From assembly GCA_043228905.1 (NCBI GenBank), contig JBHGNT010000005.1:15004001-15068000 (forward strand): a DNA stretch of 64,000 nt, in the 5' to 3' direction. Below, one piece after another: positions 2,564-50,176 of this stretch (within the stretch, counting starts at the first letter, position 1; each line of letters begins with the position of its first letter). This DNA comes from Azolla caroliniana. Its lineage: Eukaryota; Plantae; Polypodiophyta. The translations under genes were made by a program, and so were the position numbers. The notes below the pieces were generated by a model. The model was not told where the DNA came from, did no database searches, and was given only the letters and a program-made list of their open reading frames with translations.

Positions 2564-4870
2564 CTAAGGAGTCAAAGTTGGGTCAGAATACATGCTACAT
2601 ATTGATACATAAGGGGATGGATCCTTGTCCTCGAGTTCCATCGCATATTCATATGCTTTTTTGCCTAGTTTCACATTGCCACACTTTCTAGAAGCATCCA
2701 ATACACATTGCCACATGACATGATCCGGATGTGAAACCATTTGGTTAGCCATATCCATCGCTCTTGCCAAGTGCCCAGCCTGACCAATGAGATTCACCAT
2801 GCATGTGTCATGTTCAAGCATTGGAGTCATACCATAATCTTTACTCATTACCTCGTAGTAGATTTGACCTTTGTCCAACATTCCCACATGGGTGCATGCA
2901 TTAAGAATACTAATAAATGTGACCATATCTGGCTGTTCACCCAATAGCTTCATCTTCTCAAAAATTCCGAAGGCATTTTCACTATCTCCTGACTGACTAT
3001 ATCCAGCAATAAGTGCATTCCATGTGATTACATCCCGGAATAAGAGCTTGTCAAATACTTCTTGAGCTTTTCCCAGAGCGCCACATTTCGCATACATGCC
3101 AATCAATGCATTTCCAACCACCAGATCTCTTTCTAAGAACCCTTTTCGGGCAATATCAATGTGGATTTCTTGACCCTTTTCTGTAGCTCCCAATGTACAA
3201 CAAGCCTTGAGCAGAGAGATGAGTGTGGCAGCATTTGGAGAGATATTTTCATCTTTCATTGTTTCAAAACTATTGAGAGCATCCTCACAACATCCATATT
3301 TCACATACCCGGCAATCATAGCTGTCCATGAGACCACATCTCTGCTGGGGAGCATTTCCAGTACTTCTCTTGCTTCTAATAGACATCCACAGTGAGCATA
3401 CATATCAATTAAAACATTTCCAATCAGACGTTCTTCTTCTGGCAAAAGAAATCCTTTTCCACATATCTCTGCATGTATTTTCCTGCCCTTGCCCACAGCT
3501 CCAATGCAGCCACATGCTTTCAGGCTGCAAACATATGTTACCAAACTTGGAGAAACACTTTCCGCTCTCATCCTTTCAAAAAACATCAATGCTTCCTTTA
3601 AATATTGGTATTCTAAATACGTCATAATGAGTGAAGTCCATGAGATAGCATCTTGGATCAGAAGCTTCTCAAAAACTTCTCGTGCTTTCAAGATTGAACC
3701 ACATTTTCCATACATATCAATCAATGCATTACACACTGGCAGGTTGATACCACCCTCTATGTAGCCTTTCCTAGCTGCCTCAGCATGAATTTCGATCCCC
3801 ATACGAATGTCTCTGACAGTGCTGCAAGCTTGAAGGATGCAAACAAGCGTGATCGCATTTGGATTAAACCCCTCTAATCTCATTTGCATGTAGCAATCCA
3901 ATGCATCTTCAGCATACTCCTGTCTTGCGTACCCTCCAATAAGTGTTGTCCATGTAATCACATCTTTTATTTGGAGCTTTTTAAGCACTTCATGTGCATT
4001 CAAAAGAGAACCACATTTAGCGTACATGTCTACAAGTGCATTGCCAATCACCAGGTGTCTTTCTAAGAAACCTTTCCGCGCGATCTCAGCATGCACTTCT
4101 TTGCCCTCCTCAATAGCTCCAAGCGCACCACAAACTTTAAGAATGTTAATGAATGTGAACATATCAGGACAGACTCCATTCATTTGCATTTTTCTGAAGC
4201 ATTTGAGGGCTTGCTCACACTCATTATGTTTCGAATACCCTGAAATCAATGCATTCCAAGAGAATACATCCTGAACAGGGAACTTATTGAAAATTTCACG
4301 TGCTTTCTCAAGGCATCCACACCTGGCATACATCTCAATCAATGCATTGCAAATGATCGCATTTTTTCCCAACAATTCTTGTTGTAAAATCAATGCATGT
4401 AGTTCTCTACCCTTACTGATGTCTTTAACACTCCCACAAGCCTTTAAGCAGCAAGTATATGTAATCGCATTAGGCTGAACATTCATACATTGCATATGAT
4501 AGAAACAGTCAAGGGCTTCCTTTCCATGCTCATAGTTAGCATATCCTGAAATGAGGGTATTCCAAGAGACCACATCTCGAGCAGGAAGTATGTCAAATAT
4601 CTGCTTGGCTTTCCCAAGCAAGTTGCATTTGGCATACATGTCTACCAAAGCGTTCCCCACATAAAGATCCTTTCTCAATAACCCCAGTTTATTTATCTCT
4701 CCATGCAATTTAGATCCTAAGTCTAGGTCCTTGAGTGAAGAACAAGCCTTCAGTAAGGTAACAATAGAGAACCTGTTCAGGCTTTGCTGGCTCTCTTGCA
4801 TTTTGTGGTATAGGAGAAGGGCATGTTTCAGGTGCCTCTGCTTCTTGTGTGAATTAATGCCTATGTTCAT
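2564..4870 (-). CDS. PLS-class pentatricopeptide repeat protein with truncated E extension and no DYW domain (candidate organellar RNA-editing specificity factor)
   Basis: Uninterrupted 768-aa ORF of repeated P-L-S triplets (six NAL[VI][DEG]MY.KCG-type motifs, DVVSWN, TF..LLKAC). Ends in S2/E-like VMWQCVLDASRKCGNVKLGKKAYEYAMELEDKDPSPYV and stops before any DYW domain. True start uncertain. Confidence 0.93.
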   Translation of the reverse strand: MNIGINSHKKQRHLKHALLLYHKMQESQQSLNRFSIVTLLKACSSLKDLDLGSKLHGEINKLGLLRKDLYVGNALVDMYAKCNLLGKAKQIFDILPARDVVSWNTLISGYANYEHGKEALDCFYHMQCMNVQPNAITYTCCLKACGSVKDISKGRELHALILQQELLGKNAIICNALIEMYARCGCLEKAREIFNKFPVQDVFSWNALISGYSKHNECEQALKCFRKMQMNGVCPDMFTFINILKVCGALGAIEEGKEVHAEIARKGFLERHLVIGNALVDMYAKCGSLLNAHEVLKKLQIKDVITWTTLIGGYARQEYAEDALDCYMQMRLEGFNPNAITLVCILQACSTVRDIRMGIEIHAEAARKGYIEGGINLPVCNALIDMYGKCGSILKAREVFEKLLIQDAISWTSLIMTYLEYQYLKEALMFFERMRAESVSPSLVTYVCSLKACGCIGAVGKGRKIHAEICGKGFLLPEEERLIGNVLIDMYAHCGCLLEAREVLEMLPSRDVVSWTAMIAGYVKYGCCEDALNSFETMKDENISPNAATLISLLKACCTLGATEKGQEIHIDIARKGFLERDLVVGNALIGMYAKCGALGKAQEVFDKLLFRDVITWNALIAGYSQSGDSENAFGIFEKMKLLGEQPDMVTFISILNACTHVGMLDKGQIYYEVMSKDYGMTPMLEHDTCMVNLIGQAGHLARAMDMANQMVSHPDHVMWQCVLDASRKCGNVKLGKKAYEYAMELEDKDPSPYVSICSMYSDPTLTP

Positions 4871-10036: not shown

Positions 10037-10647
10037 TGTCATGCCTTTCGGCTCCGGATTGTTGCGGGAGTCAGGGGGGAACCACTGAGGTTTTGGACTA
10101 GGAGAAAGAAAATTCTAAGGCAATGAAGAATATGAAATATGTTGTAAGAAAGAAATATATGAAAAACTCGTGAATCCCATGAGTATAGTGTATTAGTGAG
10201 TACTTAGATTAAGAGAGAAAAATAGTTAGCAAATTCGTGAATCCCACGATTATATTATATTAATCTACCCTTGTAAAATAAGCAACAACCACTATACATC
10301 TTTCTCTCTCCCTTATATAGTGTTGGAAGAGTCTAAGTTTATCACATGCAAGCATCATGCTTTTCCTAACTTTAGTTTTCATGCACATTGCATGTGCATG
10401 ATTAGCTTTCCTAACTTTAGTTTTCATGCACACTACATGTGCATGATTAGCTTTCTATCCCATCTTTTTCTTTTTTTAACTCAAGTGTGTATGCATGAAT
10501 AACTTTTTGTACCATGCATATCTAGAATATTTACATGGGATAAAATTTAGTATAATTTTAAAATTCATAATATGCTAGTATAGTGGTAAGGTTGGGGTTT
10601 GTCCACGTGGAGGTACAGGGTTCGAACCTTGCCCTATGCACGTAATA
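10037..10647 (-). mobile_element. LTR (tRNA-like-module family), no internal domain attached
   Basis: TGTCATG at the left end and CGTAATA (decayed terminus) at the right end. Carries a TATA-like CTATATAAG on minus, the shared GGACCAC..TTGGAC motif and an A/B-box module. No TSD seen. Confidence 0.6.
10576..10632 (+). promoter_or_regulatory. tRNA-derived Pol III A-box/B-box module inside an LTR
   Basis: TAGTATAGTGGTAAG (A box, as in plant tRNA-Asp D arm) followed 43 nt later by GGTTCGAACC (B box) in hairpin CAGGG-TTCGAA-CCTTG. No acceptor stem, so not a functional tRNA. Confidence 0.65.
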
Positions 10648-25301: not shown

Positions 25302-26350
25302 TGTCGCGAAGATTCGCGCGCGCGCGTTACTTGGGTGGGACCACGGGGGTCTTGGACTAGGGAGTACTCAAGGGATAAATAATTAATTATTTATTTATTT
25401 TAAATCTTATAAATATAAAGCACTCTTCGAACCCACTCTACTAATCCTCACTCTACGAATCTTCACTCTACTAATCCTCATTCTATGAATCCTCACTCTA
25501 CGAATCCTCTCTCTACGAATCCTCACTCTATGAATCTTCACTCTATGAATCCTCTCTACGAACTCTCTCTACGAATCCTCACTCTACGAACTCTCTCTAC
25601 GAACTCTCTCTACGAACTCTCTCTACGAATCCTTTCTACGAACCCACTCTACGAATCCTCTCTTGGAACCCACTCTACGAACTCTCTCTACGAATCTAAG
25701 GGGACGATAACACAAACACGAATGCTTGTACGTCTTTATGAGGAGGAAAGGTGCATGGGCACGCCCGAAACGTTCCCTCGTCACAAGACGGCCGAACGTA
25801 CAAGGAAGACACGAACAAGAAAGAAAGAAAGAAGGAACACGAATGATATCGGCCAAAGGAGTAAATACGTGTTCGATTCCAACGCAAGAGGCCCCTTTAT
25901 AAATAGGGTTTGATTACAATAGCAACTTCTAGCTAACCATTGGCTCAATCAAAACATAAATACTAAATGACCTTAGAGACAAGAGCAAAACCGACCACAA
26001 CGAAGATAAACACACGAGCACCACCAAAATGCCAACCCCAACGAACCACGACCACCCGAACGGCAAGCACACGGGCTCGCAACGACGAACGAGGCTCGCA
26101 ACGACGAACGAGGCTCGCAACGTCGAACCAACGAAGCTTGGGCTCATGAGCACTTCGAGTGTCAACACAAAGAAGACGAGCACGTGGTGATGAGGGGATG
26201 AAGGGGTATGAAGAGATGAAGAGAAGTGGTGAAGAAGAAGATGAAGAACTCCGAAGGAAAAATGGCGATAGTCTCCTCCTCTTAAAATATCCTCCCAAAT
26301 GAGCCCCCCTCGACCTCCTTTTATAGGAAAAAAGGAAGAGGGGTCGCAAA
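25302..26350 (-). mobile_element. LTR-like fragment with 15-bp minisatellite and conserved stem-loop
   Basis: Left end TGTCGCG followed by GGGACCACGGGGGTCTTGGAC, identical to the motif in LTR 33667-34288. TATA-like boxes on minus near 25900 and 26320. Right boundary uncertain. Confidence 0.5.
25432..25696. repeat. 14-15-bp minisatellite (CTCTACGAATCCTCA), roughly 18 copies
   Basis: Seen directly. Confidence 0.9.
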
Positions 26351-27214
26351 TTTTGTCTTTAATGCAAAACGGAATAAAATTCCTTAAATCACGCTACATT
26401 GTAAGACTAGATTTAAACGGTGCACCTCTAACTAGAAGTCAATGTGACTATCCACTAGCCCATTAACTCTATTTTATATAATATATAATTCTATCTCTAC
26501 AAATTCATAGCTTGTATCCCCTCTACCTTTTATCTCTCCTCTCTCTTACTTTTTACATGAGCTTCTATACATCCTTTCCACCCGGGTTTTCTCACCATGG
26601 CCGAAAATCCTCATGACATCGTGTTTGTGGATTTTTATTATCACCTAACATTGTATTCATCTTTATTGGTGCTACATCATTAGGAGAATGCAAGGTCCTC
26701 ATTTCTACTTGTTGTAAAGGAAGGAGATTGATAAATAAATCATTGCTGTGTTGTAATATATTACTTTCCTCTCAACTAATGAATTATTGTTTGTTTGAAA
26801 CATTATTTGAACCGTAGGTATGTCATTATTATAGCAAGTTGGTTTTGCATGTGTTTGTTTGTTGCAAACTATATAATCTAAGGAAAATGTGTATTAGAAA
26901 GAGATATTGTATTGCTAATAGTGTGATTAATATGTATGGTAAATGTGGCTTGACCCATGTAGCACATATATGTTTGATAAGCTTTACATATTGAATTAGT
27001 CATATATTAATTTCTTCCCCGTTAAATAATGTTGTGATGTGAGAAGTTATTGAGCATTTGAAGGAACTTCTTGTAGTGATGGGGTATTCATGATAATTGT
27101 TGATGAAATTTTATAAAGTTTAAATATAGAATAACTATCAAACCAAATAATGAACTCTTGCGTCTTTATTAGTAAAAGAATATCTATGATTTAGGTGCAA
27201 ATAGACACGAGCCC

Positions 27215-40716: not shown

Positions 40717-43700
40717 TATGGAGTCCACAACAAGCAAGAATATATGCATGTTCTCTCTGAGCTCGACATGCTAACAACCAAATTCGTGGCACTAGAGCAT
40801 GACAATCAAAGATTACTAGGAGACCTACAACAAGTGCTGAGAAAGTACAACAATATGAAGAATTATCTCAACGAGTGCATCAATTAGAGGCTACTCTATT
40901 GCAACGAAAGTGACGGACGTTCAAACCTCGTCGAAGGAACCCAAGATTAGTCTGCCAGCCAGGTTTGATGGTACAAGGTCTCAATTTTGTGGAATTTTAA
41001 ATCAGGTACAGCTTGTGATTAAATTGCATCCTAGTCGTTACCCAACTGATGTTGCTCATGTGGGACTAGTTGGTACCTTGTTCACGGGTACCGCATTAGC
41101 GTGGTTTGCACCACTCCTAGAGAAGCACTCATCATTATTAGAAGATTTTGGAGGGTTTATTAATGAGTTCAAAGCCAACTTTGGAGACACTGATAGTATG
41201 AGGACCGCAATAAACAAAATTCGGCGATTACGACAAGGAGATCGTCCTACTTCCGCTTATGCTGTAGATTTTCGCCTTCTAGTATGTGATATTCCATGGG
41301 ATGAGGCGGCATTAATGGACCAATTTCTTCAAGGTCTGTGCAATGATGTGAAGGATTTACTTCTTACCTTCCATGATTATCCAAAATCTCTTACTGAAGC
41401 AGTAAGCCAGGCCGTGCGATGTGACAATCGCTTATTTGAGCGGCGTTCTGAGCGCCAACAAATGTTACGTTTCCGACCAACAGAAATATATGCTTCAATG
41501 GTCGCAACTCCACCCCAATTTATCAAAGTCAAGTGTGGTGGAAGGCCGTACTCCAATGGAAATCGAGACAACACGACGTCAAGGACCATTATTGATTGCT
41601 GAAAAGCAACGACAGCGAGTGAATCGTCTATGCCTCTATTGTGGTGGTCCAAGGCATATTGTTGTGAATTGTCCACATAAACCACGATGACAAGTTAATC
41701 AAGTAAGTGCTCATGTCAATCCTATATCAATTTCTGCCCCGCCTTCTCGTAACCCAAGTAGGCCTAGTAGTCCCTGTCATAAAAATATATTTGATGTCTT
41801 GCGCCAATTAGATGATATGTTAAACGAGTAAGTCCGGCCAAAATCGGAGCCATTTGGTTGGACAGCCCGAGGCATGTACCCTCCATCTCTAGTTATGGTT
41901 CCATTTCATCCGGTCAAGTTAGTCGAGTTTTCTCTGCACAAGTTGAGTTTAACACATCTAGGTGCCATCGAGTCCCAGCTTCTGCCCTCTTAGACTTTGG
42001 AGCCAACTCTTGTTTCATGGATCGTGAGTTTGTTGTAATGCATAATATTCAGTTGCATAAGCTCCCAATCCCAGTGTCTGTCGGAGTCATTGATGGACGC
42101 CCCATAACATCAAATGATATAGTTGAAGAGTCTGAACCAATTCGTGTAGTACTAGGCAATTTGGCTAGTGTCATCTCATTCAACATCATTAGTAGTCCAA
42201 AGCACTCCCTAGTCTTGGTCTTTCATAGTTTGAGCTACATAACCCAACTATTGATTGGAGAAAAAGAACCATTGAAGAGGTCACAATACAATCTGAGTCT
42301 CTTAAAACTCCAACAAAGGATATGACATTCCAAAAGATTTCGACAATCTCTATACATCAGCTACGTGAGGAAGGACGGAAGGAAGACATGTTGGTGTTCG
42401 AAGTTTTAGCAACTCCCACATCGAGTTCACAGGAATCAGGGGTCCAACTACCGAAGAAATATGTAGAATTCTCCGATGTGTTTGATAAGGTGAAGGCCAA
42501 TAGACTACTAGAGCATCGACCATATGATTGCCCGATTGATTTGCAGCCCAGAAAAGACATGTTGGTGTTCGAAGTTTTAGCAACTCCCACATCGAGTTCA
42601 CAGGAATCAGGGGTCCAACTACCGAAGAAATATGTAGAATTCTCCGATGTGTTTGATAAGGTGAAGGCCAATAGACTACTAGAGCATCGACCATATGATT
42701 GCCCGATTGATTTGCAGCCCAGAAAAGAGCCTCCATGGGGGCCAGTTTATAACCTTTCTTCCACAAAGTTAGAGGTTCTTCGGGAATATATCGATGAGAA
42801 CTTGGCGAATGGGTTTATCCAGCATTCAAGATCTCCTGCCAGCACACCCATATTTTTCGTTAAGAAGAAAGATAGTTCGCTTCGTCTAGTCGTGGATTAT
42901 CAAGGATTGAATAAAGTGATATGCTCTACCATTGATTTCGAACCTTCTGGAACGCCCCAGTGGAGCTAAGTATTTCACAAAGTTAGATCTTCGAGCTGCT
43001 TACAATCTTGTTCGAATTCGTCCTAGGGATGAATGGAAGACTACTTTCCGTACTCGATATGGCCATTTTGAGTGTACAGTGATGCCATTTGGTCTCACGA
43101 ATGCAGCAGCAGTTTTCCAACATATGGCAAATGACATTTTTCGAGATTTCCTCGATATTTTCATCATAGTTTATCTAGATGATATCTTGATCTACTCAAA
43201 AGCTCAAGAGGATCATGATATACACGTTCGACAAGCTTTGGAACGATTGCGTGAATATGGTCTTTATGCAAAATTGCATAAGTGCAGTTTTGACCAGCGT
43301 CAAGTGGAATGTTTGGGGTACATTGTCTCTTCATATGGCATCTCTATGGATCCAGCAAAGGTTCAAATAGTTTTGGATTGGCAAACACCACAGTCTGTGC
43401 GAGATGTACAGTGTTTTTTCGGGTTCGCAAACTTTTATCGCAAGCTCATCAAAGATTATTCAAAGATCGTATTGCCCCTCACTCAACTAACACAGAAGAA
43501 TCGACCATTTGTGTGGAGTATAAATGCAAACTCTGCATTTGAAGGATTACAGCAAGCATTTACATCTGCACCAATTTTGATGCATGCTGATCCATTGAAG
43601 CGCTTTATACTTGAAGCCGATGCATCCAACTTCGCACTAGGAAGCGTATTATCCCAGATTAGCAATGATAGCCAACTGCACCCTGTGGCTTTTCATTCAC

Positions 43701-44620
43701 CGAAATTCGAAGCTGCAGAAATCAACTATGAGATTCACGACAAAGAGCTTCTTGCCATTGTGGATTCTTTTCAACAATGGTGTCATTTTTTGGAGGGTTC
43801 GTCTCAACAAATCATTGTCTATAATGATCACAAAAATCTAACGTACTTCCAAAGTGCTCGAGTCTTGAGTCGTCGACAAGCTCGTTGGGCACGGTTCCTA
43901 ACTCGTTTTGATTTCGTAATTCTATATCGCCCTGGGACGCAACAAGGAAATCAGATGCTTTATCTCAGCGTTTGTATATGGAACTTCAACCATGAGAGGC
44001 TGCATTTGAAAATCAGAAGTAAATCCTCCTGGGTCCTAACCGTCTACGACTAATGTCATTTCATGCTATAGACACACCCGGGGATTCAAGTCTTCTGGAC
44101 TCCATTCAGGAGCATATTGAGACTGATCAATTCGCCCAAGACATTCTGAACCATATTATCCCAGATCGCGCTTCTTGTTCACAATCTCAAAATCCTCGTC
44201 AAGACTACAACCAGTTCAATTGGCATGATGGTTTACTTTTTCGACAAAATCTCTTATATGTGCCTGATGGTCCTTCTCGACTCCAAGTCTTGCAACAATG
44301 TCATGACACACCAATGGCTAGAAATATCGGCATCCACAAGACTTTGGCGTTAATTTCTCGAAGGTATTGGTCGCCACAACTTCGCCATTTTGTTACGGAT
44401 TATGTTCGTAGTTGTGATACATGTTGCCGATCCAAAAAACCTCGACATCATCCATATGGCTTATTACAGCCAATGGCCATTCCTGAGAGTCCATGGAAAT
44501 CTATTTCATTGGACTTCATTAAGGATCTACCACCTTCCAAGGGTTTTGATTCTATTCTTACGGTAGTAGATCATTTTACCAAGATGGCACATTTTCTTCC
44601 CTGCACAAAGGCCATTACGA

Positions 44621-45965
44621 TGTCGTGATGTTTTTGACACATAGTGTGAAACCACCCTCAAAAGAGAATAAAATAGTGGTCCAAATAAACTAATTTTCTT
44701 AAGTCAAGTATAGTAATAAATGAAAGGATAAAAAGTTAGAAAAGGTTTTCGAAAGTAGACAAAAATAAAGAAAAAGATGGGAAAAGAAAAGTAGTCGTGG
44801 ATATGAGCAAGGTCGAGTAAAAAGCTCATAATTTCCTAGTCAAATTTCCAAATTAGAAAAGAAAAGCTGCATAAGAAATCTAACCTAAAGAGCTTTCCAA
44901 GAATATATTGCATGTGAAATTTGAGGCTAGAAAATAGAAATAGTGAGGAAAAGAAAAGTCGACTCATATAGAAAAGGTTTTTTTAGGGGGAAAAGGCAAG
45001 CAATCCTAAACCTATAAATAAGAGCCTATTCTAGTGAAGAAAGGGGGGGAGGGAGAAGGAATGTGGAAGCTCTACTCAAATGGAAAGCGGAAGAAGAAGG
45101 ATCAACAACATCGAGTGGCATCATCAACAAAGAAACTCCTTCTATAGTCCACTCTCTTCGTTCCTCCACCTCTCTTCCCCCATTCCTTTATAAACAATCC
45201 TTCATATTCACATCCAACCCATTGTAACATGATTCTTATATTATAAAAGAATCTATTATATTGATATAAATTAATGTTTTCTTTCATCTACTTGTCTTAT
45301 GTGTAAATCTTGATTGTGCTTATTTGTTATCGTCATTTGTGCTTATTTGTTTGTGTGTCTTGTGACAAGGGAGCGTTTCAGGCTTGCCCATGCACCTCTC
45401 CTTTCACAAAGGCATTCAAACCTACGTGTCTTATATTTTATCTTCGTTTGTGCTTATTTTTTTGTGTGTCTTGTGACAAGGGAGTGTTTCGGGCTTGCCC
45501 ATGCACCTCTCCTTTCACAAAGGCATTCAAACTTACGTGTCTTGCGTGTTAGTGTAAATCGTGCTTGTGTGTCCGTGTGACTTGTGGCAAGGGAGCGTTC
45601 GGGCTTGCCCATGCAACTCTCCTTTCACAAAGGCGTTCGAAATTGTGTCTCTTGTATGTGAACCTTGCTTGTGTGTTCATGCGACTTGTGGTAAGGGAGC
45701 GTTCAAGCTTGCCCATGCACCTCTCTTTTCACAAAGGCGTTCGAAATTGTGTCTCCCGTGTGTAAACCTTGCTTGTGTGTTCACGTGTCTTATAACAAGG
45801 GAGCATTCGGGCTTGCCCATGCACCTCTCTTTTCACAAAGGCATTCGAAACTCTGTCTCTCGTGTGTGTGAGGAAGCCTTTTCCTTGTGTGTTCGCGTGT
45901 CTTGTAACAAGTGAGCGTTCGGGCTTGCCCATGCACCTCTCTTTTCACAAAGGCATTCGAAACTC
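44621..45965 (+). mobile_element. Truncated LTR-like insertion in the chromovirus integrase
   Basis: Begins TGTCGTGA right after PCTKAIT, has TATA CCTATAAATA at 45011, and ends in a stem-loop array before host integrase resumes (ELLMREVFRHHG). Confidence 0.75.
45355..45965 (+). repeat. Tandem array of six ~105-120-bp units, each with a ~60-nt stem-loop
   Basis: Core GTGTCTTGTGACAAGGGAGCGTTCGGGCTTGCCCATGCACCTCTCCTTTCACAAAGGCAT repeated six times. Confidence 0.92.
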
Positions 45966-47479
45966 CGAGTTACTCATGCGAGAGGTGTTTCGGCATCATG
46001 GTCCTCCTAATGATATTATCAATGATCGGGGTCCCCAGTTCATCTCAAAATTTTGGCGGTACATGTTCAAACTCTTACATACTTCTTGCAAACTCTCTTT
46101 CGGCTACCATCCAGAAACTAACGGACAAAGTGAGCTCACCAACCAAACAGTAGAACAATATCTTCGTTGTTTTGTCAGCTATCAACAAGATGATTGGATT
46201 AATCTATTACATTTGGCGGAATTTGCTTACAACAACTCAGAACATTCGTCTACTGGATATTCCCCATTTTTTGCAAACATTGGGCACCATCCTCGGACTA
46301 TGCTTGAGCATCCCGAACTCCCGACAAACCCGGCTGTTGAAGATCAGCTCACCTGACTCCAAGAAGTTCAAGATATCTTTTTGCACCATTTATGTGATGC
46401 TCAAAACACTCAGAAGAAGGTTGTCGACTGCCATCGACGTGATTCATCGACTACGTTTCAAGTGGGAGATCGAGTATGGCTTTTACAAGGTCGTATTAAA
46501 ACAACCCGACCTTGCTGCAAATTGGATTATCAACGTTTTGGCCCATATGTGATATCTGGTAAGATCAATGATGTGGCATTTCGCCTTGACCTTCCCCCTC
46601 GTATGCATCTTCACCCGGTCTTCCATGTTTCACTTTTGGAGCCGTACACAACCAGCTCTATTCCAGGCCGTCTTACATCTCCCCCACCTCCAATCGAAGT
46701 TTCGGATGGCTCCGAATATGAAGTTGCTGTCATTCTTAACTCCAAGATCGTTCGCAACAAATTCTATTGTCTTACATCTCCCCCTCCTCCAATCGAAGTT
46801 TCGGATGGCTCCGAATATGAAGTTATTGCCATTCTTGACTCCAAGATCGTTCGCAACAAAATCTATTATTTGGTTGACTAGTTAGGTTATACACCTAATG
46901 ATCGAACATGGGAACCTCTCGAGAATCTTGCTAATGCCTCTGAAATGGTTGATGCGTTTCACAACAAATATCCCCATAAGCCAAGTCTGAAATCTTGTCT
47001 TCCGACTAGTGGAACTCGTCTTCGAAAAGGGAGGATAATGTCAGGAAGACATACATTTTGCCCTTGCAAGGATTCGAGCCCACAACGTCTTGGTCTTTAT
47101 GTTAGACCTTTAACCATTATAATAAACATATATGATGTATAGTTATAATAAATATATTTTTAGTTATTACAAGATAATTAGAGTATTCTAGAATGTTCTA
47201 GGATATTCCATGATTATATTAAATATCATAAATATCTGAAATATTCTAGAACATTCTAGAATACTCCATAAGGACCTATAAATAGGTGTCTATTCATTCA
47301 TCACGACTCATTCGGTTCAACACCAGTTTGTAGCCCCTTAGCCTACTCTTTGTAATCCTTGCTCTCTTATAATATAAACTCTCTTTCCATTTCTAGTGTT
47401 CTCTCTCTCTATATGTATATACCTTCTATTATCATCTTATCTTTCTCTCTCCTATTCTCAAGTCTCAACACTCTTGACG

Positions 47480-47935
47480 GCGCAAGATTTATCAGGTATA
47501 TTGTTGTCTAGAAAGCTTCTGCCCAAAATTCCAACTTCAGTCCAGCTTGCCGGAGCATTGTCGTCACCCTCTCCTGGATCATTCTGTTGATTTGTTCTGC
47601 CACTTAATTTTACATGGGTGTGTAGGGAATAGTCTTTTGATGTCGGATCCCTTTGTCGGATAGGTACTATTTGAAGGCTTTGGAGGTGTACTCGCCTCCG
47701 TTGTCGGATCAGAGCGTCTTCACTTTGTATCCCGACCGGTTCTCCAATTCAGATGTCCATCGAGTGAAGACCTCGTGCACTTCTTCTTTGGACTTGATGG
47801 AGTATACCCAAACTTTCCGTGTAGAGTCATCTACGAATTTCATGAAGTATTGGGAGCTTCCTAGTGATCAGTCTAGCATGGGCCTGCATATGTCTCTGTG
47901 CACGAGCTCTAGGGGTTGTCGTACCGTCTCATAAT
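47480..47935 (-). pseudogene. Copia integrase fragment (probably the continuation of 56396-57792)
   Basis: Minus strand reads PLELVHRDIC...FVDDSTRKVWVY...SDNGGEY...FWAEA. Confidence 0.8.
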
Positions 47936-50176
47936 GGAGAGTGTGCCGTCCATAACTTCCATCCTTGCGCAAGGGATTCATCGATCATTTTCTTTGCTAG
48001 GTTTCGATGTTTCCCTATGATGTGCTGCACTTTGTCCCTAGTGATGCTTGCGACGTATTGGGTGGTTTGCAACTCTTTCCGTAAATCCGTAATAGTGGCT
48101 CGGTTTTCACTTTCAGCTCGCATTAGTTTGGATTCGACTACATATATGTCCAGCCGTCTTTGTTCTGATATCTTCTGAATTTCGTTCAGTTGTTGTTCGA
48201 ATGCTGATTTCTCTTTGCTCCATTCCTCCTGCTGTTCCGTAATTCTTCTGTTGACTTCTTCAAGACTCCGCTCTTTTTCTGTCAATTGACTTTCCTGTGA
48301 CACTATATACCTTTCGAATTCTTCAATTTGTTCGGTATATGTATGATTGGCCGTCTTAGCTTCTTCCAGATTTTTTTGTAATTCGTTTATTAATTGATTT
48401 TTTTCTTCGAGAACTTTGTATTGGCCATTCTGAATGGTTTCTATTTGTTTTTCTAATTCTGTAGTTCGAAATACAGCATTGTTGGCCCTTGTTGTTTCTG
48501 CTTGTCGTGCTTTCTCAGCATCCTCCAATTTCTGCTGCCATTCTGACTCCGACGCCATAAGCCGTGCCTGCGTTTCCCATTTGTTTAGACTTTCTTTTAG
48601 TTCTTTATTTTCTGACTGTATGTTACAAAACTGATGTTTCAGCACCTCCGCCGATGCTGATACACTTTTGTATCTTTCAGCCATATCACTGGCTGCTTTG
48701 CGTGCCGTTTCATATTCTTTATGAATTTCGACCAGTGCTTCATGTAATGGTGGCATTTCAATAGCCTCCCCTCTATTCTGTGCATTTCTTTTCCGGCCGA
48801 TTTTCTCTATCTCTGCTTTTTCTTGAGGTTCCAACACTCCTCGTAAGGCTTTCTGTATCATTATTCGGTCATTATGTTCTTGAGCCAGCCATTCTGATAC
48901 TTCTGTCAATCTTTTAGCCAACCATTCAACCAGTTCGTATGAGGTTCCGAACTGTAAAATGGCAGCTAATTCATGTGCTGCTGGTGGAATATCCAAGTAC
49001 CCATGTGCTTCCCGAATTGCTACTTTTGAAGATTGGCCTTGTTGAGGTTGTGTCGAAACGCTCTCATTCCCTGGTTTTATTACTTCTGATACTACAGGCG
49101 TATTCGAATTTTCCTTTGTGCGTTGCCTTTTCGGTGCTGACCCATCACTGTTTTCTAGTTGGAATTGCCTATTAGCCTTTTGTTTAACCCTTGTCCTTTG
49201 TCGCATCTTCTCTGGTTGTTGTCGATTTTCTGTCGGCTGCTGCTTGTTTATCAAATGGTCAACTGTTTCTTGTTCGGCTGCTGGTTGCCTGTTTTCGGAA
49301 TTCTCTGGTCTTGGTGGTTCCGACTGAGGCGTATCCGTTTGTATATTATCGGCATGTGCCGATTCTTCCTCTATCCATTCTTCATGTACTACCTGTCGGT
49401 GTCTTCGCGGTGCTTGTACTATCGGTGGTCTTCTTGACTGAACAGGAATTTCCGATTCTTGAATCGGAAACAATACCGATAGCCAACGACCAAAAATTTG
49501 CTTCATTGGTTTTCCTGTTTTCACCCCTTGTAGCTGCTCTCTCAGAGCTTCCCCCCGACAATAGTGGCCAGTTGAAATCCTCCTTTTCGTATGCGGCTAT
49601 GATAAACCCAGCCCTTTTTTTCGGCATACAATAAAAACGGGGATTGACAAATCCCACCTCTAGTAAAAATCTAGCCACTTCATGGAAAAACTCATCCCGA
49701 CCTCCATAAGTCTGATATGCTTTTGACGAGGGTGAGTATTCCCCGAAATACGATTGGAGTGCTTCTGATGAAGGTTTTTTAACTGCCTCAAAGCCTCCTC
49801 TTGGCATCTGTAATGCATTTCGTATTTTCTTTGTGGTGACCTTGGTGATGTCTAACTGTTGTACCAATTCTTCCGCCTGCGGATGAGGTTCCGCTTCTGC
49901 TACTTTGATGAAACCTTGTAAGTTTCTCTCATGAAGCCATAGTCGCAGTTCTTCAGACACAGGAATCGGCATGACTTCTGTGTTTGCTTGTTCTGAATCA
50001 CTTGTAGATAACGGTTGGAGATCTGCACAACTTCTGTAGCGATGAAAATCAGAAAAACAGAGTTTGGGCGAACTAGGGCACGAAGGCTCAGACTGTTTCG
50101 ATATCTGCACTCGTTTCTGTTGTTTTGGCGACACAGACGATACAGAAATATGCTTTAAAGATATTAATTTATGCAT
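47929..50176 (-). pseudogene. Additional retroelement ORF downstream of pol (helical N-terminal domain, low-complexity linker, long coiled coil), one frameshift near 49555
   Basis: The 264-aa and 531-aa ORFs overlap and join at FNWPLLS / LREQLQGVKTGKPM. The C-terminal half is E/K/Q heptad-rich and truncated against a copia fragment. Confidence 0.75.

What the first reader, a model, noticed from the sequence alone, without database searches (positions are those of the whole stretch)
45355..45965. Six-fold amplified ~60-nt RNA stem-loop capped by G(CUUG)C
Seen: each unit folds as nested pairs GTGTCT/AGGCAT, TGTGA/TCACA and AAGG(G)AG/CTCCTT, then an internal loop (CGTTC / ATGCACCT) and terminal hairpin GGG-CTTG-CCC. 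Spacers vary in length while the core is kept. The array lies downstream of the TATA box at 45011, so it would be transcribed. Established: G(CUUG)C is an extra-stable tetraloop, and plant non-autonomous LTR elements can carry functional RNAs (retrozymes). Inference: a selected cis-acting RNA element (packaging, dimerisation, protein binding or an unclassified ribozyme) whose copy number was amplified.
Basis: partly seen in the sequence, partly recalled or inferred. Interest (0 to 1): 0.72.

Follow-up and report, generated by a model that had tools for sequence, protein, structure and literature searches.

The report
Tandem hairpin repeat in retrotransposon LTRs
The six copies are part of a variable-number repeat in the end sequences of two families of plant jumping genes, found thousands of times in this genome; its short core is conserved and it likely serves as a protein-binding signal on the element's RNA, but it is not a known ribozyme and the support for its predicted fold is modest.

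Summary
The array is real: six 104-112 nt units at 45350-45961. It is the 3' part of a truncated LTR (44621-45964) of a Phygy-type Ty3/gypsy element, nested in a chromovirus integrase. Family A LTRs carry 3-13 units; a second family (B, window 25302-26618) carries 1-24; the core 19-mer occurs 2104 times. A and B share nothing else in their LTRs and are not one clade in a gag tree (p-AU 2e-6); 0 of 30 other Phygy LTR ends carry the unit. A 24-nt core varies at 1 of 24 columns across five unit types, against 35 of 63 flanking columns, which argues for sequence-level selection. Support for the fold is modest: z from -3.75 to +0.26, covariation reached by 20 of 500 shuffles, all three double changes are transitions. 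The CUUG cap is not universal: older unit types carry other hairpins that mostly close just before the same GCACCUCUCC block. No Rfam match, no hammerhead core, and the host family encodes gag, RT and integrase. Best reading: a likely protein-binding leader signal amplified by out-of-register recombination. No earlier scan note on this sequence was found. Transcription was not tested.

The parts
44621..45964 (+). Family A LTR of a Phygy-type Ty3/gypsy element, 3'-truncated (last unit type A4 and about 160 nt of LTR end missing)
   Evidence: Aligns at 81-92% to other family A LTRs from its TGTCGTGA start; full LTRs end in TCACGACA about 160 nt after an A4 unit; relatives' contigs join 44620 to 45964-45965 with 11-12 letters between
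44617..44620 (+). NCGN target site (ACGA); the second copy was lost with the deletion
   Evidence: Sequence; 4-bp NCGN duplications at other loci; Phygy feature in PMC6317226
45013..45019 (+). TATA box of the LTR (function inferred)
   Evidence: Sequence; kept in family A and in older A-like LTRs
45223..45275 (+). A/T-rich stretch (TGTAA ... TATAAAA), inferred 3'-end processing signals; the array follows it
   Evidence: Sequence; like stretches precede the array in family B and older LTRs; not tested with RNA
45350..45420 (+). Unit 1, type A1
45461..45531 (+). Unit 2, type A1 (best folding, z -3.75)
45571..45641 (+). Unit 3, type A2
45675..45745 (+). Unit 4, type A2 (cap stem decayed)
45779..45849 (+). 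Unit 5, type A3
45891..45961 (+). Unit 6, type A3
40859..46989 (+). Host element: chromovirus-type Ty3/gypsy (gag, RT, RNase H, integrase split by the LTR, SH3, chromodomain), with stops and frameshifts
   Evidence: ORFs; Pfam Retrotrans_gag, RVT_1, RT_RNaseH, Integrase_H2C2, SH3_Tf2-1, Chromo E 2e-11
25302..26618 (-). Family B solo LTR with one unit; flanks ACGA and ACGG
   Evidence: Sequence; family found genome-wide
25717..25802 (-). Seventh unit, type B (CGUG cap)
26400..26469 (-). tRNA-like cassette (A-box-like, GAGGTGCA, B-box-like) in U3 of the family B LTR, same sense as the element
   Evidence: Profile hit E 7e-16 (profile built from such cassettes). Such cassettes were not called by ARAGORN or Rfam in other loci

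Best explanation
The array is a variable-number tandem repeat in the 3' part of the LTRs of two Phygy-type Ty3/gypsy families, and each unit likely acts as a protein-binding signal (most likely for the element's own Gag) in the 5' leader of the genomic RNA. Shown: position in the LTR, copy number of 1-24, ordered unit types, a conserved 24-nt core, a patchy spread over the gag tree. Predicted: an imperfect stem of about 70 nt with a small cap hairpin next to the invariant GCACCUCUCC block. Inferred: the array lies in U5, so it would be present once, at the 5' end of the RNA; copies are gained and lost by out-of-register template switching in reverse transcription or unequal recombination; the unit moved between families A and B the same way; extra copies would give a modest edge in RNA selection and packaging. 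The window copy is a broken relic and likely does nothing now. I put about 0.9 on the anatomy, about 0.65 on selection on the core, and 0.4 on this function.
For: Core: 1 of 24 columns varies across five unit types against 35 of 63 flanking columns (P 0.00015 for any 24-column window; without CpG columns 0 of 20 against 22 of 43). A and B are 36-39% identical in gag and 57-66% in RT, and their LTRs align only at the unit (84% over 81 nt). One clade of unit-bearing rows is rejected (p-AU 1.8e-6, 31 rows; 4.8e-6, 33 rows). Order A1 to A4 is monotone in 28 of 29 arrays, as crossover between aligned arrays gives. Older unit types C, E, F and G replace the cap by other hairpins through transversions and insertions; in 14 of the 16 rows shown for these types (leaving out one misfiled row) the hairpin closes 0-2 nt before GCACC. 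Three double changes and five one-sided changes keep pairs at type level. Leader signals for Gag binding and dimer formation are established for Ty1 (PMC6844567, abstract).
Against: 0 of 30 PBS-anchored Phygy LTR ends carry the unit, so most families replicate without it, and 16 of 30 family B loci have a single unit. Covariation is reached by 20 of 500 shuffles and the count of double-change pairs by 120 of 500. All double changes are transitions, two at CpG pairs; seven type-level states break a pair. Cap hairpins beat their shuffles at p under 0.05 in only 5 of the 16 rows, and template-switch mutation can perfect inverted repeats without selection. The five types are related, so the core test overstates independence. 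The U5 position and Gag binding were not tested.
Confidence: 0.4

Rival explanations
1. Neutral passenger: a repeat that arose once, is copied by slippage and recombination, and is swapped between families; the core looks conserved through recent exchange or conversion, and the hairpins come from palindrome-perfecting mutation.
For: Absent from 30 of 30 other Phygy LTR ends; copy number 1-24; 49% of copy-level changes are C-to-T or G-to-A; covariation is marginal; repeats are known to drive indels in plant LTRs (PMC4728375, passages).
Against: The core stays fixed while both flanks diverge inside the same arrays, also at non-CpG columns; types A2-A4 were not picked for the core (they came along); the GCACCUCUCC block survives in older types whose caps changed.
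Confidence: 0.2
2. DNA-level enhancer array: the core carries an RY-like CATGCA and the spacers carry ACGT/ABRE-like words, so the array would be a cluster of transcription-factor sites just downstream of the promoter (motif names recalled).
For: The constraint looks sequence-specific: the 3' block is invariant while its predicted partner strand varies; CATGCA is in types A, B and C; ACGT words are in A1, A3 and B flanks; Sirevirus LTRs carry repeated cis-motifs (PMC4728375, passages).
Against: Types E and G have AAGCA in place of CATGCA yet keep GCACCUCUCC; ACGT words are not kept in all types; the Sirevirus repeats lie before the TATA box, this array after it.
Confidence: 0.15
3. tRNA-like pairing box: the unit derives from an inverted piece of the tRNA-like cassette in Phygy U3 regions, and its invariant block pairs with the cassette's GAGGUGCA, in cis in family B (joining the RNA's two ends for strand transfer) or in trans with small cassette transcripts.
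For: The cassette motif occurs 3109 times; family B carries it in sense in U3, in some loci with a perfect 12-nt complement to the core; a profile of type C units ranks cassettes 2nd, 3rd and 5th in 164,252 bases.
Against: Those hits have E 0.92-2.9; A and B types score 0-4 bits against the cassette profile; no sense complement was found in six family A stretches; a pattern for an intermediate form gave 1 hit, not in an array; pairing to the real tRNA-Trp is -11.9 kcal/mol, weaker than the best unrelated sites.
Confidence: 0.12
4. 3'-end processing control: the U/GU-rich spacers and hairpins right behind the inferred poly(A) signals act as downstream elements at the 3' LTR or shield the site at the 5' LTR.
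For: The array starts just behind the A/T-rich stretch in A, B and older LTRs; spacers are TG-rich.
Against: The conserved part is the C-rich core, not the TG-rich spacers; cleavage sites are not mapped.
Confidence: 0.1
5. Self-cleaving ribozyme array (retrozyme-like).
For: Tandem structured units in an LTR; the minus strand of type B has a loose hammerhead look-alike (UGAGGA, GAAAC, GUC; seen).
Against: No Rfam match near its gathering score; CUGANGA in 1 of 555 units; GAAA is lost in A2, A3, A4 and B2; the families are coding elements, and cleavage in the leader would destroy their template.
Confidence: 0.03

Closest known systems
Phygy lineage of non-chromovirus Ty3/gypsy elements (Neumann et al. 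2019, PMC6317226, passages read)
   Same: 4-bp target duplication with NCGN preference, tRNA-Trp primer among those of non-chromoviruses, short internal region filled by the polyprotein
   Different: The passages read report tandem repeats in large non-chromoviruses, not a structured repeat in Phygy LTRs; no reference Phygy proteins were on hand for a tree
Palindrome-rich repeats in maize Sirevirus LTRs (PMC4728375, passages read)
   Same: Repeated, hairpin-forming motif in plant LTRs, hotspot of indels, conserved in old copies
   Different: Ty1/copia, 13-nt palindromes before the TATA box; here 104-112 nt units after it
Ty1 leader dimerization and Gag-binding signals (PMC6844567, abstract read)
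   Same: Structured signals near the 5' end of a retrotransposon RNA, upstream of or around the primer site
   Different: Single copy, palindromic and tested in Ty1; here multicopy, no conserved palindrome, untested
Retrozymes (recalled; search listing only)
   Same: Structured RNA motif inside plant LTRs
   Different: Retrozymes are non-autonomous and carry hammerheads; neither holds here
Helenus and Cassandra TRIMs with small-RNA-derived LTR promoters (PMC10886601, abstract, introduction and passages read)
   Same: tRNA-like sequence with A and B boxes inside an LTR, as in the U3 cassette seen here
   Different: Those are short non-autonomous elements; here the cassette is in coding Gypsy families, in either orientation, and its link to the repeat unit is only suggestive

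Membership tests
Phygy (Ty3/gypsy) | 4-bp target site duplication, NCGN | tested here: met
   13 solo LTRs with both ends found: 4 exact NCGN duplications, 7 differing only by CpG decay, 2 not matching
Phygy (Ty3/gypsy) | PBS for a full tRNA other than Met | tested here: met
   18-nt complement to the genome's tRNA-Trp(CCA)
Phygy (Ty3/gypsy) | gag, then RT before integrase | tested here: met
   tblastn order in family A (L062 with L221) and B (L217)
Phygy (Ty3/gypsy) | Placement with reference Phygy RT-RH-INT in a tree; no chromodomain or archaeal RNase H | not tested
   No reference sequences on hand; Pfam was run on a nested sister element only
Retrozyme / hammerhead | CUGANGA and GAAA core around three helices | tested here: not met
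   CUGANGA in 1 of 555 units, none in the window array on either strand; no Rfam hammerhead match
Retrozyme / hammerhead | Non-autonomous, non-coding element | tested here: not met
   Families A and B carry gag, RT and integrase
Retrozyme / hammerhead | Self-cleavage and circular RNA | not testable with these tools
   Needs an in vitro assay and RNA data
Any Rfam 15 family | Score at the gathering threshold | tested here: not met
   Best match over the window array E 3.5; none at threshold in 7 and 8 further loci
Selected structured RNA | Significant covariation | tested here: inconclusive
   20 of 500 shuffles reach the score; double changes are transitions; caps rebuilt in older types
Packaging or dimerization signal (Ty1/retroviral type) | In the 5' leader of the genomic RNA | tested here: inconclusive
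   Between TATA box and PBS; RNA ends not mapped
Packaging or dimerization signal (Ty1/retroviral type) | Conserved self-complementary loop | tested here: not met
   Loops CUUG, CGUG, CGGG are not palindromes; an 8-nt palindrome occurs only in rare type G
Packaging or dimerization signal (Ty1/retroviral type) | Gag binding, needed for packaging | not testable with these tools
   Needs binding and mobility assays
Helenus-type tRNA-derived LTR sequence (for the unit) | A and B boxes at tRNA spacing | tested here: not met
   Units match at most the variable-loop and T-arm part, E about 1; the separate U3 cassette has both box-like motifs

The most novel reading that the evidence does not exclude
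Phygy LTRs carry a tRNA-like cassette, and two families turned an inverted piece of it into an amplifiable array of hairpins that display an invariant block; the block pairs with the cassette RNA to join the genome's ends or to catch small partner RNAs, and spread between distant families as an exchangeable replication enhancer.
Probability: 0.1. Interest if true: 0.7.

Novelty: new variant of a known kind. Interest (0 to 1): 0.3.

Why it matters
Little is known about the RNA signals that plant LTR retrotransposons use for packaging and replication. A repeat with natural copy numbers from 1 to 24, present in two distant families and absent from their sisters, is a ready-made series for testing whether leader signals are modular and exchangeable. 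If it is neutral, it is one more LTR minisatellite and a warning that CpG decay on both arms of a hairpin mimics covariation.

Tried and rejected
Rfam on the window array and on 15 further loci: nothing at threshold; the HIV SL3 hit (E 0.097, L119, minus strand) lies on the strand opposite to the units and is taken as chance. Viral contigs: 6 hits to the 19-mer, none with matching flanks. Covariance model on 30 PBS-anchored loci: best E 0.39. A genome-wide search with the model was not available, so remote relatives outside the fetched loci and patterns may be missed. Hammerhead look-alike on the B minus strand; twister, pistol and hatchet resemblances (recalled): cores not met. Primer-activation-type pairing with tRNA-Trp: -11.9 kcal/mol, not outstanding. 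Shared against private variants: 5 of 11 against 12 of 108 keep pairing among non-decay changes, but recurrent A-to-G and T-to-C transitions bias this, so it is not used. Microhomology at the deletion junction: not borne out by relatives' contigs. Match to P. patens RLG1 or RLG2: no motif hit in the supplement of PMC7466625, whose sequence cells are cut at about 400 letters, so this is open. Expression: no RNA holder listed; a few low-depth contigs of a run only guessed to be RNA touch the units, which is no evidence. The protein domains first scanned in L061 proved to belong to a nested sister element, not to family A. Earlier scan notes: none by sequence; those by words concern another lineage.

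Full report
Observation. The window holds six units of a 104-112 nt repeat at 45350-45961 and one relative on the minus strand at 25717-25802. The predicted fold is an imperfect stem of about 70 nt with a small cap hairpin. The cap GGG-CUUG-CCC is intact in 4 of 6 copies. Folding z-scores of the six copies run from -3.75 to +0.26; 2 of 150 random window 71-mers reach -3. That G(CUUG)C is an extra-stable loop is recalled, not tested.

Context. The array is the 3' part of an LTR that starts at 44621 and was inserted at an ACGA site in the integrase of a chromovirus-type element. Contigs of two public runs carry the host element uninterrupted, joining 44620 to 45964-45965 with 11-12 letters between. 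So a deletion removed the LTR's last unit, its end and a few host bases. The window copy is a relic.

Family. A search with unit 2 gave 201 matches among the 40 candidates scored of 793; the 30 loci fetched hold 3-13 units each. The seventh copy belongs to a second LTR family, B, with 1-24 units in 30 loci, 16 of them single (L040 and L054 overlap). The core 19-mer occurs 2104 times, the reversed control 0 times. Both families have a primer site that is an 18-nt complement of the genome's tRNA-Trp and 4-bp NCGN target duplications (4 exact, 7 with CpG decay, 2 not matching, of 13). NCGN preference is the mark of the Phygy lineage in PMC6317226 (passages); a bryophyte host is my inference from that. 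Both carry gag, RT and integrase, so they are not non-autonomous. The same units occur in 51 metagenome contig loci and family A LTR contigs are in runs labelled with other organisms.

Distribution. The LTR-PBS junction pattern occurs 4609 times. In the first 30 such loci, which fall in 17 clusters, none has the unit within 1500 nt upstream, by pattern, covariance model or nhmmer. A and B are 36-39% identical in gag and 57-66% in RT, and their LTRs align only at the unit. In a gag tree, A groups with two unit-less rows and B with 13; one clade of unit-bearing rows is rejected with 33 of 43 rows (10 dropped for matches under 120 aa; p-AU 4.8e-6) and again without two long branches (p-AU 1.8e-6). 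One transfer between families, or one gain with several losses, would explain this. Type C units occur in both A-like and B-like LTRs, which fits exchange.

Amplification. Unit types in family A keep the order A1, A2, A3, A4 in 28 of 29 arrays, with free numbers of each. Crossover between arrays aligned out of register gives this pattern, in reverse transcription or in chromosomes (inference).

Selection on sequence. Across the five large types (436 of 541 aligned units) a 24-column core varies at 1 column and the flanks at 35 of 63; the chance of any such window in shuffles is 0.00015, and without CpG columns it is 0 of 20 against 22 of 43. Types A2-A4 were not picked for the core, but the types are related and the metagenome loci were picked by the core pattern.

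Selection on structure. On 18 real copies chosen to stand for six clusters, 91% of cells pair, but the covariation score is reached by 20 of 500 shuffles and the number of double-change pairs by 120 of 500. At type level there are three double changes (all transitions, two at CpG pairs), five one-sided changes that keep a pair, and seven states that break one. C-to-T and G-to-A make up 49% of 2301 copy-level changes. The better evidence comes from rarer, more decayed types: C (cap GGUUU-CGGG-AAACC, 9 exact pattern hits), E, F and G (a 14-15 nt longer cap). Their caps differ by transversions and insertions, yet close 0-2 nt before GCACC in 14 of 16 rows shown (5 of 20 C units were shown; one misfiled G row left out). 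Only 5 of these 16 beat shuffles at p under 0.05, type D caps are mostly unfolded, and palindrome-perfecting mutation could do the same without selection. The invariant feature is thus the block GCACCUCUCC, not the CUUG loop.

Not a known ribozyme. Rfam gives nothing at threshold. The hammerhead core CUGANGA (recalled) is in 1 of 555 parsed units and in none of the window copies.

A lead on origin. The minus strand of the core resembles the variable loop and T arm of a tRNA-like cassette in the U3 region of many LTRs of this lineage (3109 exact hits; examples), which is in sense in family B and antisense in others. Type C units score a median 6 bits against a cassette profile whose members were partly picked with a unit-derived pattern; in the reverse test the cassette hits have E 0.92-2.9. 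This is suggestive only. ARAGORN and Rfam do not call the cassette; its A and B boxes are read from recalled consensus.

Mechanism. I commit to a leader signal: U5-side hairpins that display a conserved block to a protein, most likely Gag, with copy number set by recombination (0.4). Neutral passenger (0.2), DNA enhancer array (0.15), pairing with the tRNA-like cassette (0.12), 3'-end processing control (0.1) and ribozyme (0.03) are the rivals. The U5 position, the fold and every function are inferred, not shown.

Literature. Seen: PMC6317226 and PMC4728375 (passages), PMC7466625 (passages, search of four supplements, part 2 of one table with cut cells), PMC10886601 (abstract, introduction, passages), PMC6844567 (abstract). 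Searches for this motif or its kind found no description: searches returned no paper, and searches listed papers on other systems, most seen as listings only. The library lacks most subscription papers, and Repbase or the supplements of PMC6317226 (not read) may already hold these LTRs.

Verdict. A real, high-copy LTR repeat with a conserved core and a modestly supported fold; a new variant of a known kind of feature. Interest 0.3.

Noticed in passing
window 26400-26469 (-) and 10569-10639 (+); L075, L077, L099, L175-L204, L206: tRNA-like cassettes (A-box-like, variable middle arm, GAGGTGCA, B-box-like at tRNA spacing) are fixed in the U3 region of many coding Phygy-type LTRs, in either orientation; 3109 exact hits to one pattern. 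They recall Helenus and Cassandra promoters but sit in autonomous-type families; worth a study of their own.
   Followed up: partly
L073-L102, around the PBS: Many LTR ends carry CCCGCC about 30 nt before the end and GGCGG just after the primer site, which would pair across it; an ACACGCA word near the end complements the tRNA-Trp T arm, like a primer activation signal.
   Followed up: no
L155:1750-2700 (oriented): An LTR with type C units is followed by an inverted copy of itself, which would give a long double-stranded RNA if transcribed.
   Followed up: no
L023, L048: Other elements of the same lineage inserted inside a unit at its GCGT, an NCGN site.
   Followed up: no
L173, L174: Primer sites extended by about 20 nt of further tRNA-Trp complement, as copying past the usual stop in the primer would give.
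   Followed up: no
G000 C5, C8, C16, C300: Tandem clusters of tRNA-Trp genes or copies, about 0.9-1.2 kb apart.
   Followed up: no
window 25421-25696: A 13-15 nt minisatellite of about 20 copies in the family B LTR, between its single unit and the LTR end; also in L032.
   Followed up: no
L243, L246, L249: Rare unit type G has a longer cap holding the 8-nt palindrome AAGCGCTT; three loci.
   Followed up: partly
window 3008-4654: Six copies of a 105-nt stretch spaced 306-312 nt apart (multiples of three), likely a protein repeat of 102-104 aa.
   Followed up: no
window 47929-49596 (-): A 555-aa open frame rich in E, K and Q, coiled-coil-like, with a 289-aa frame just upstream.
   Followed up: no
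window 42383-42728 and 46670-46867: Perfect 171-nt and near-perfect 99-nt tandem duplications inside the host element's pol.
   Followed up: no
L061:3757-4839 (-): The gag-protease region of a nested sister element has a weak DUF4100 match (E 1e-5, below cut-off).
   Followed up: no
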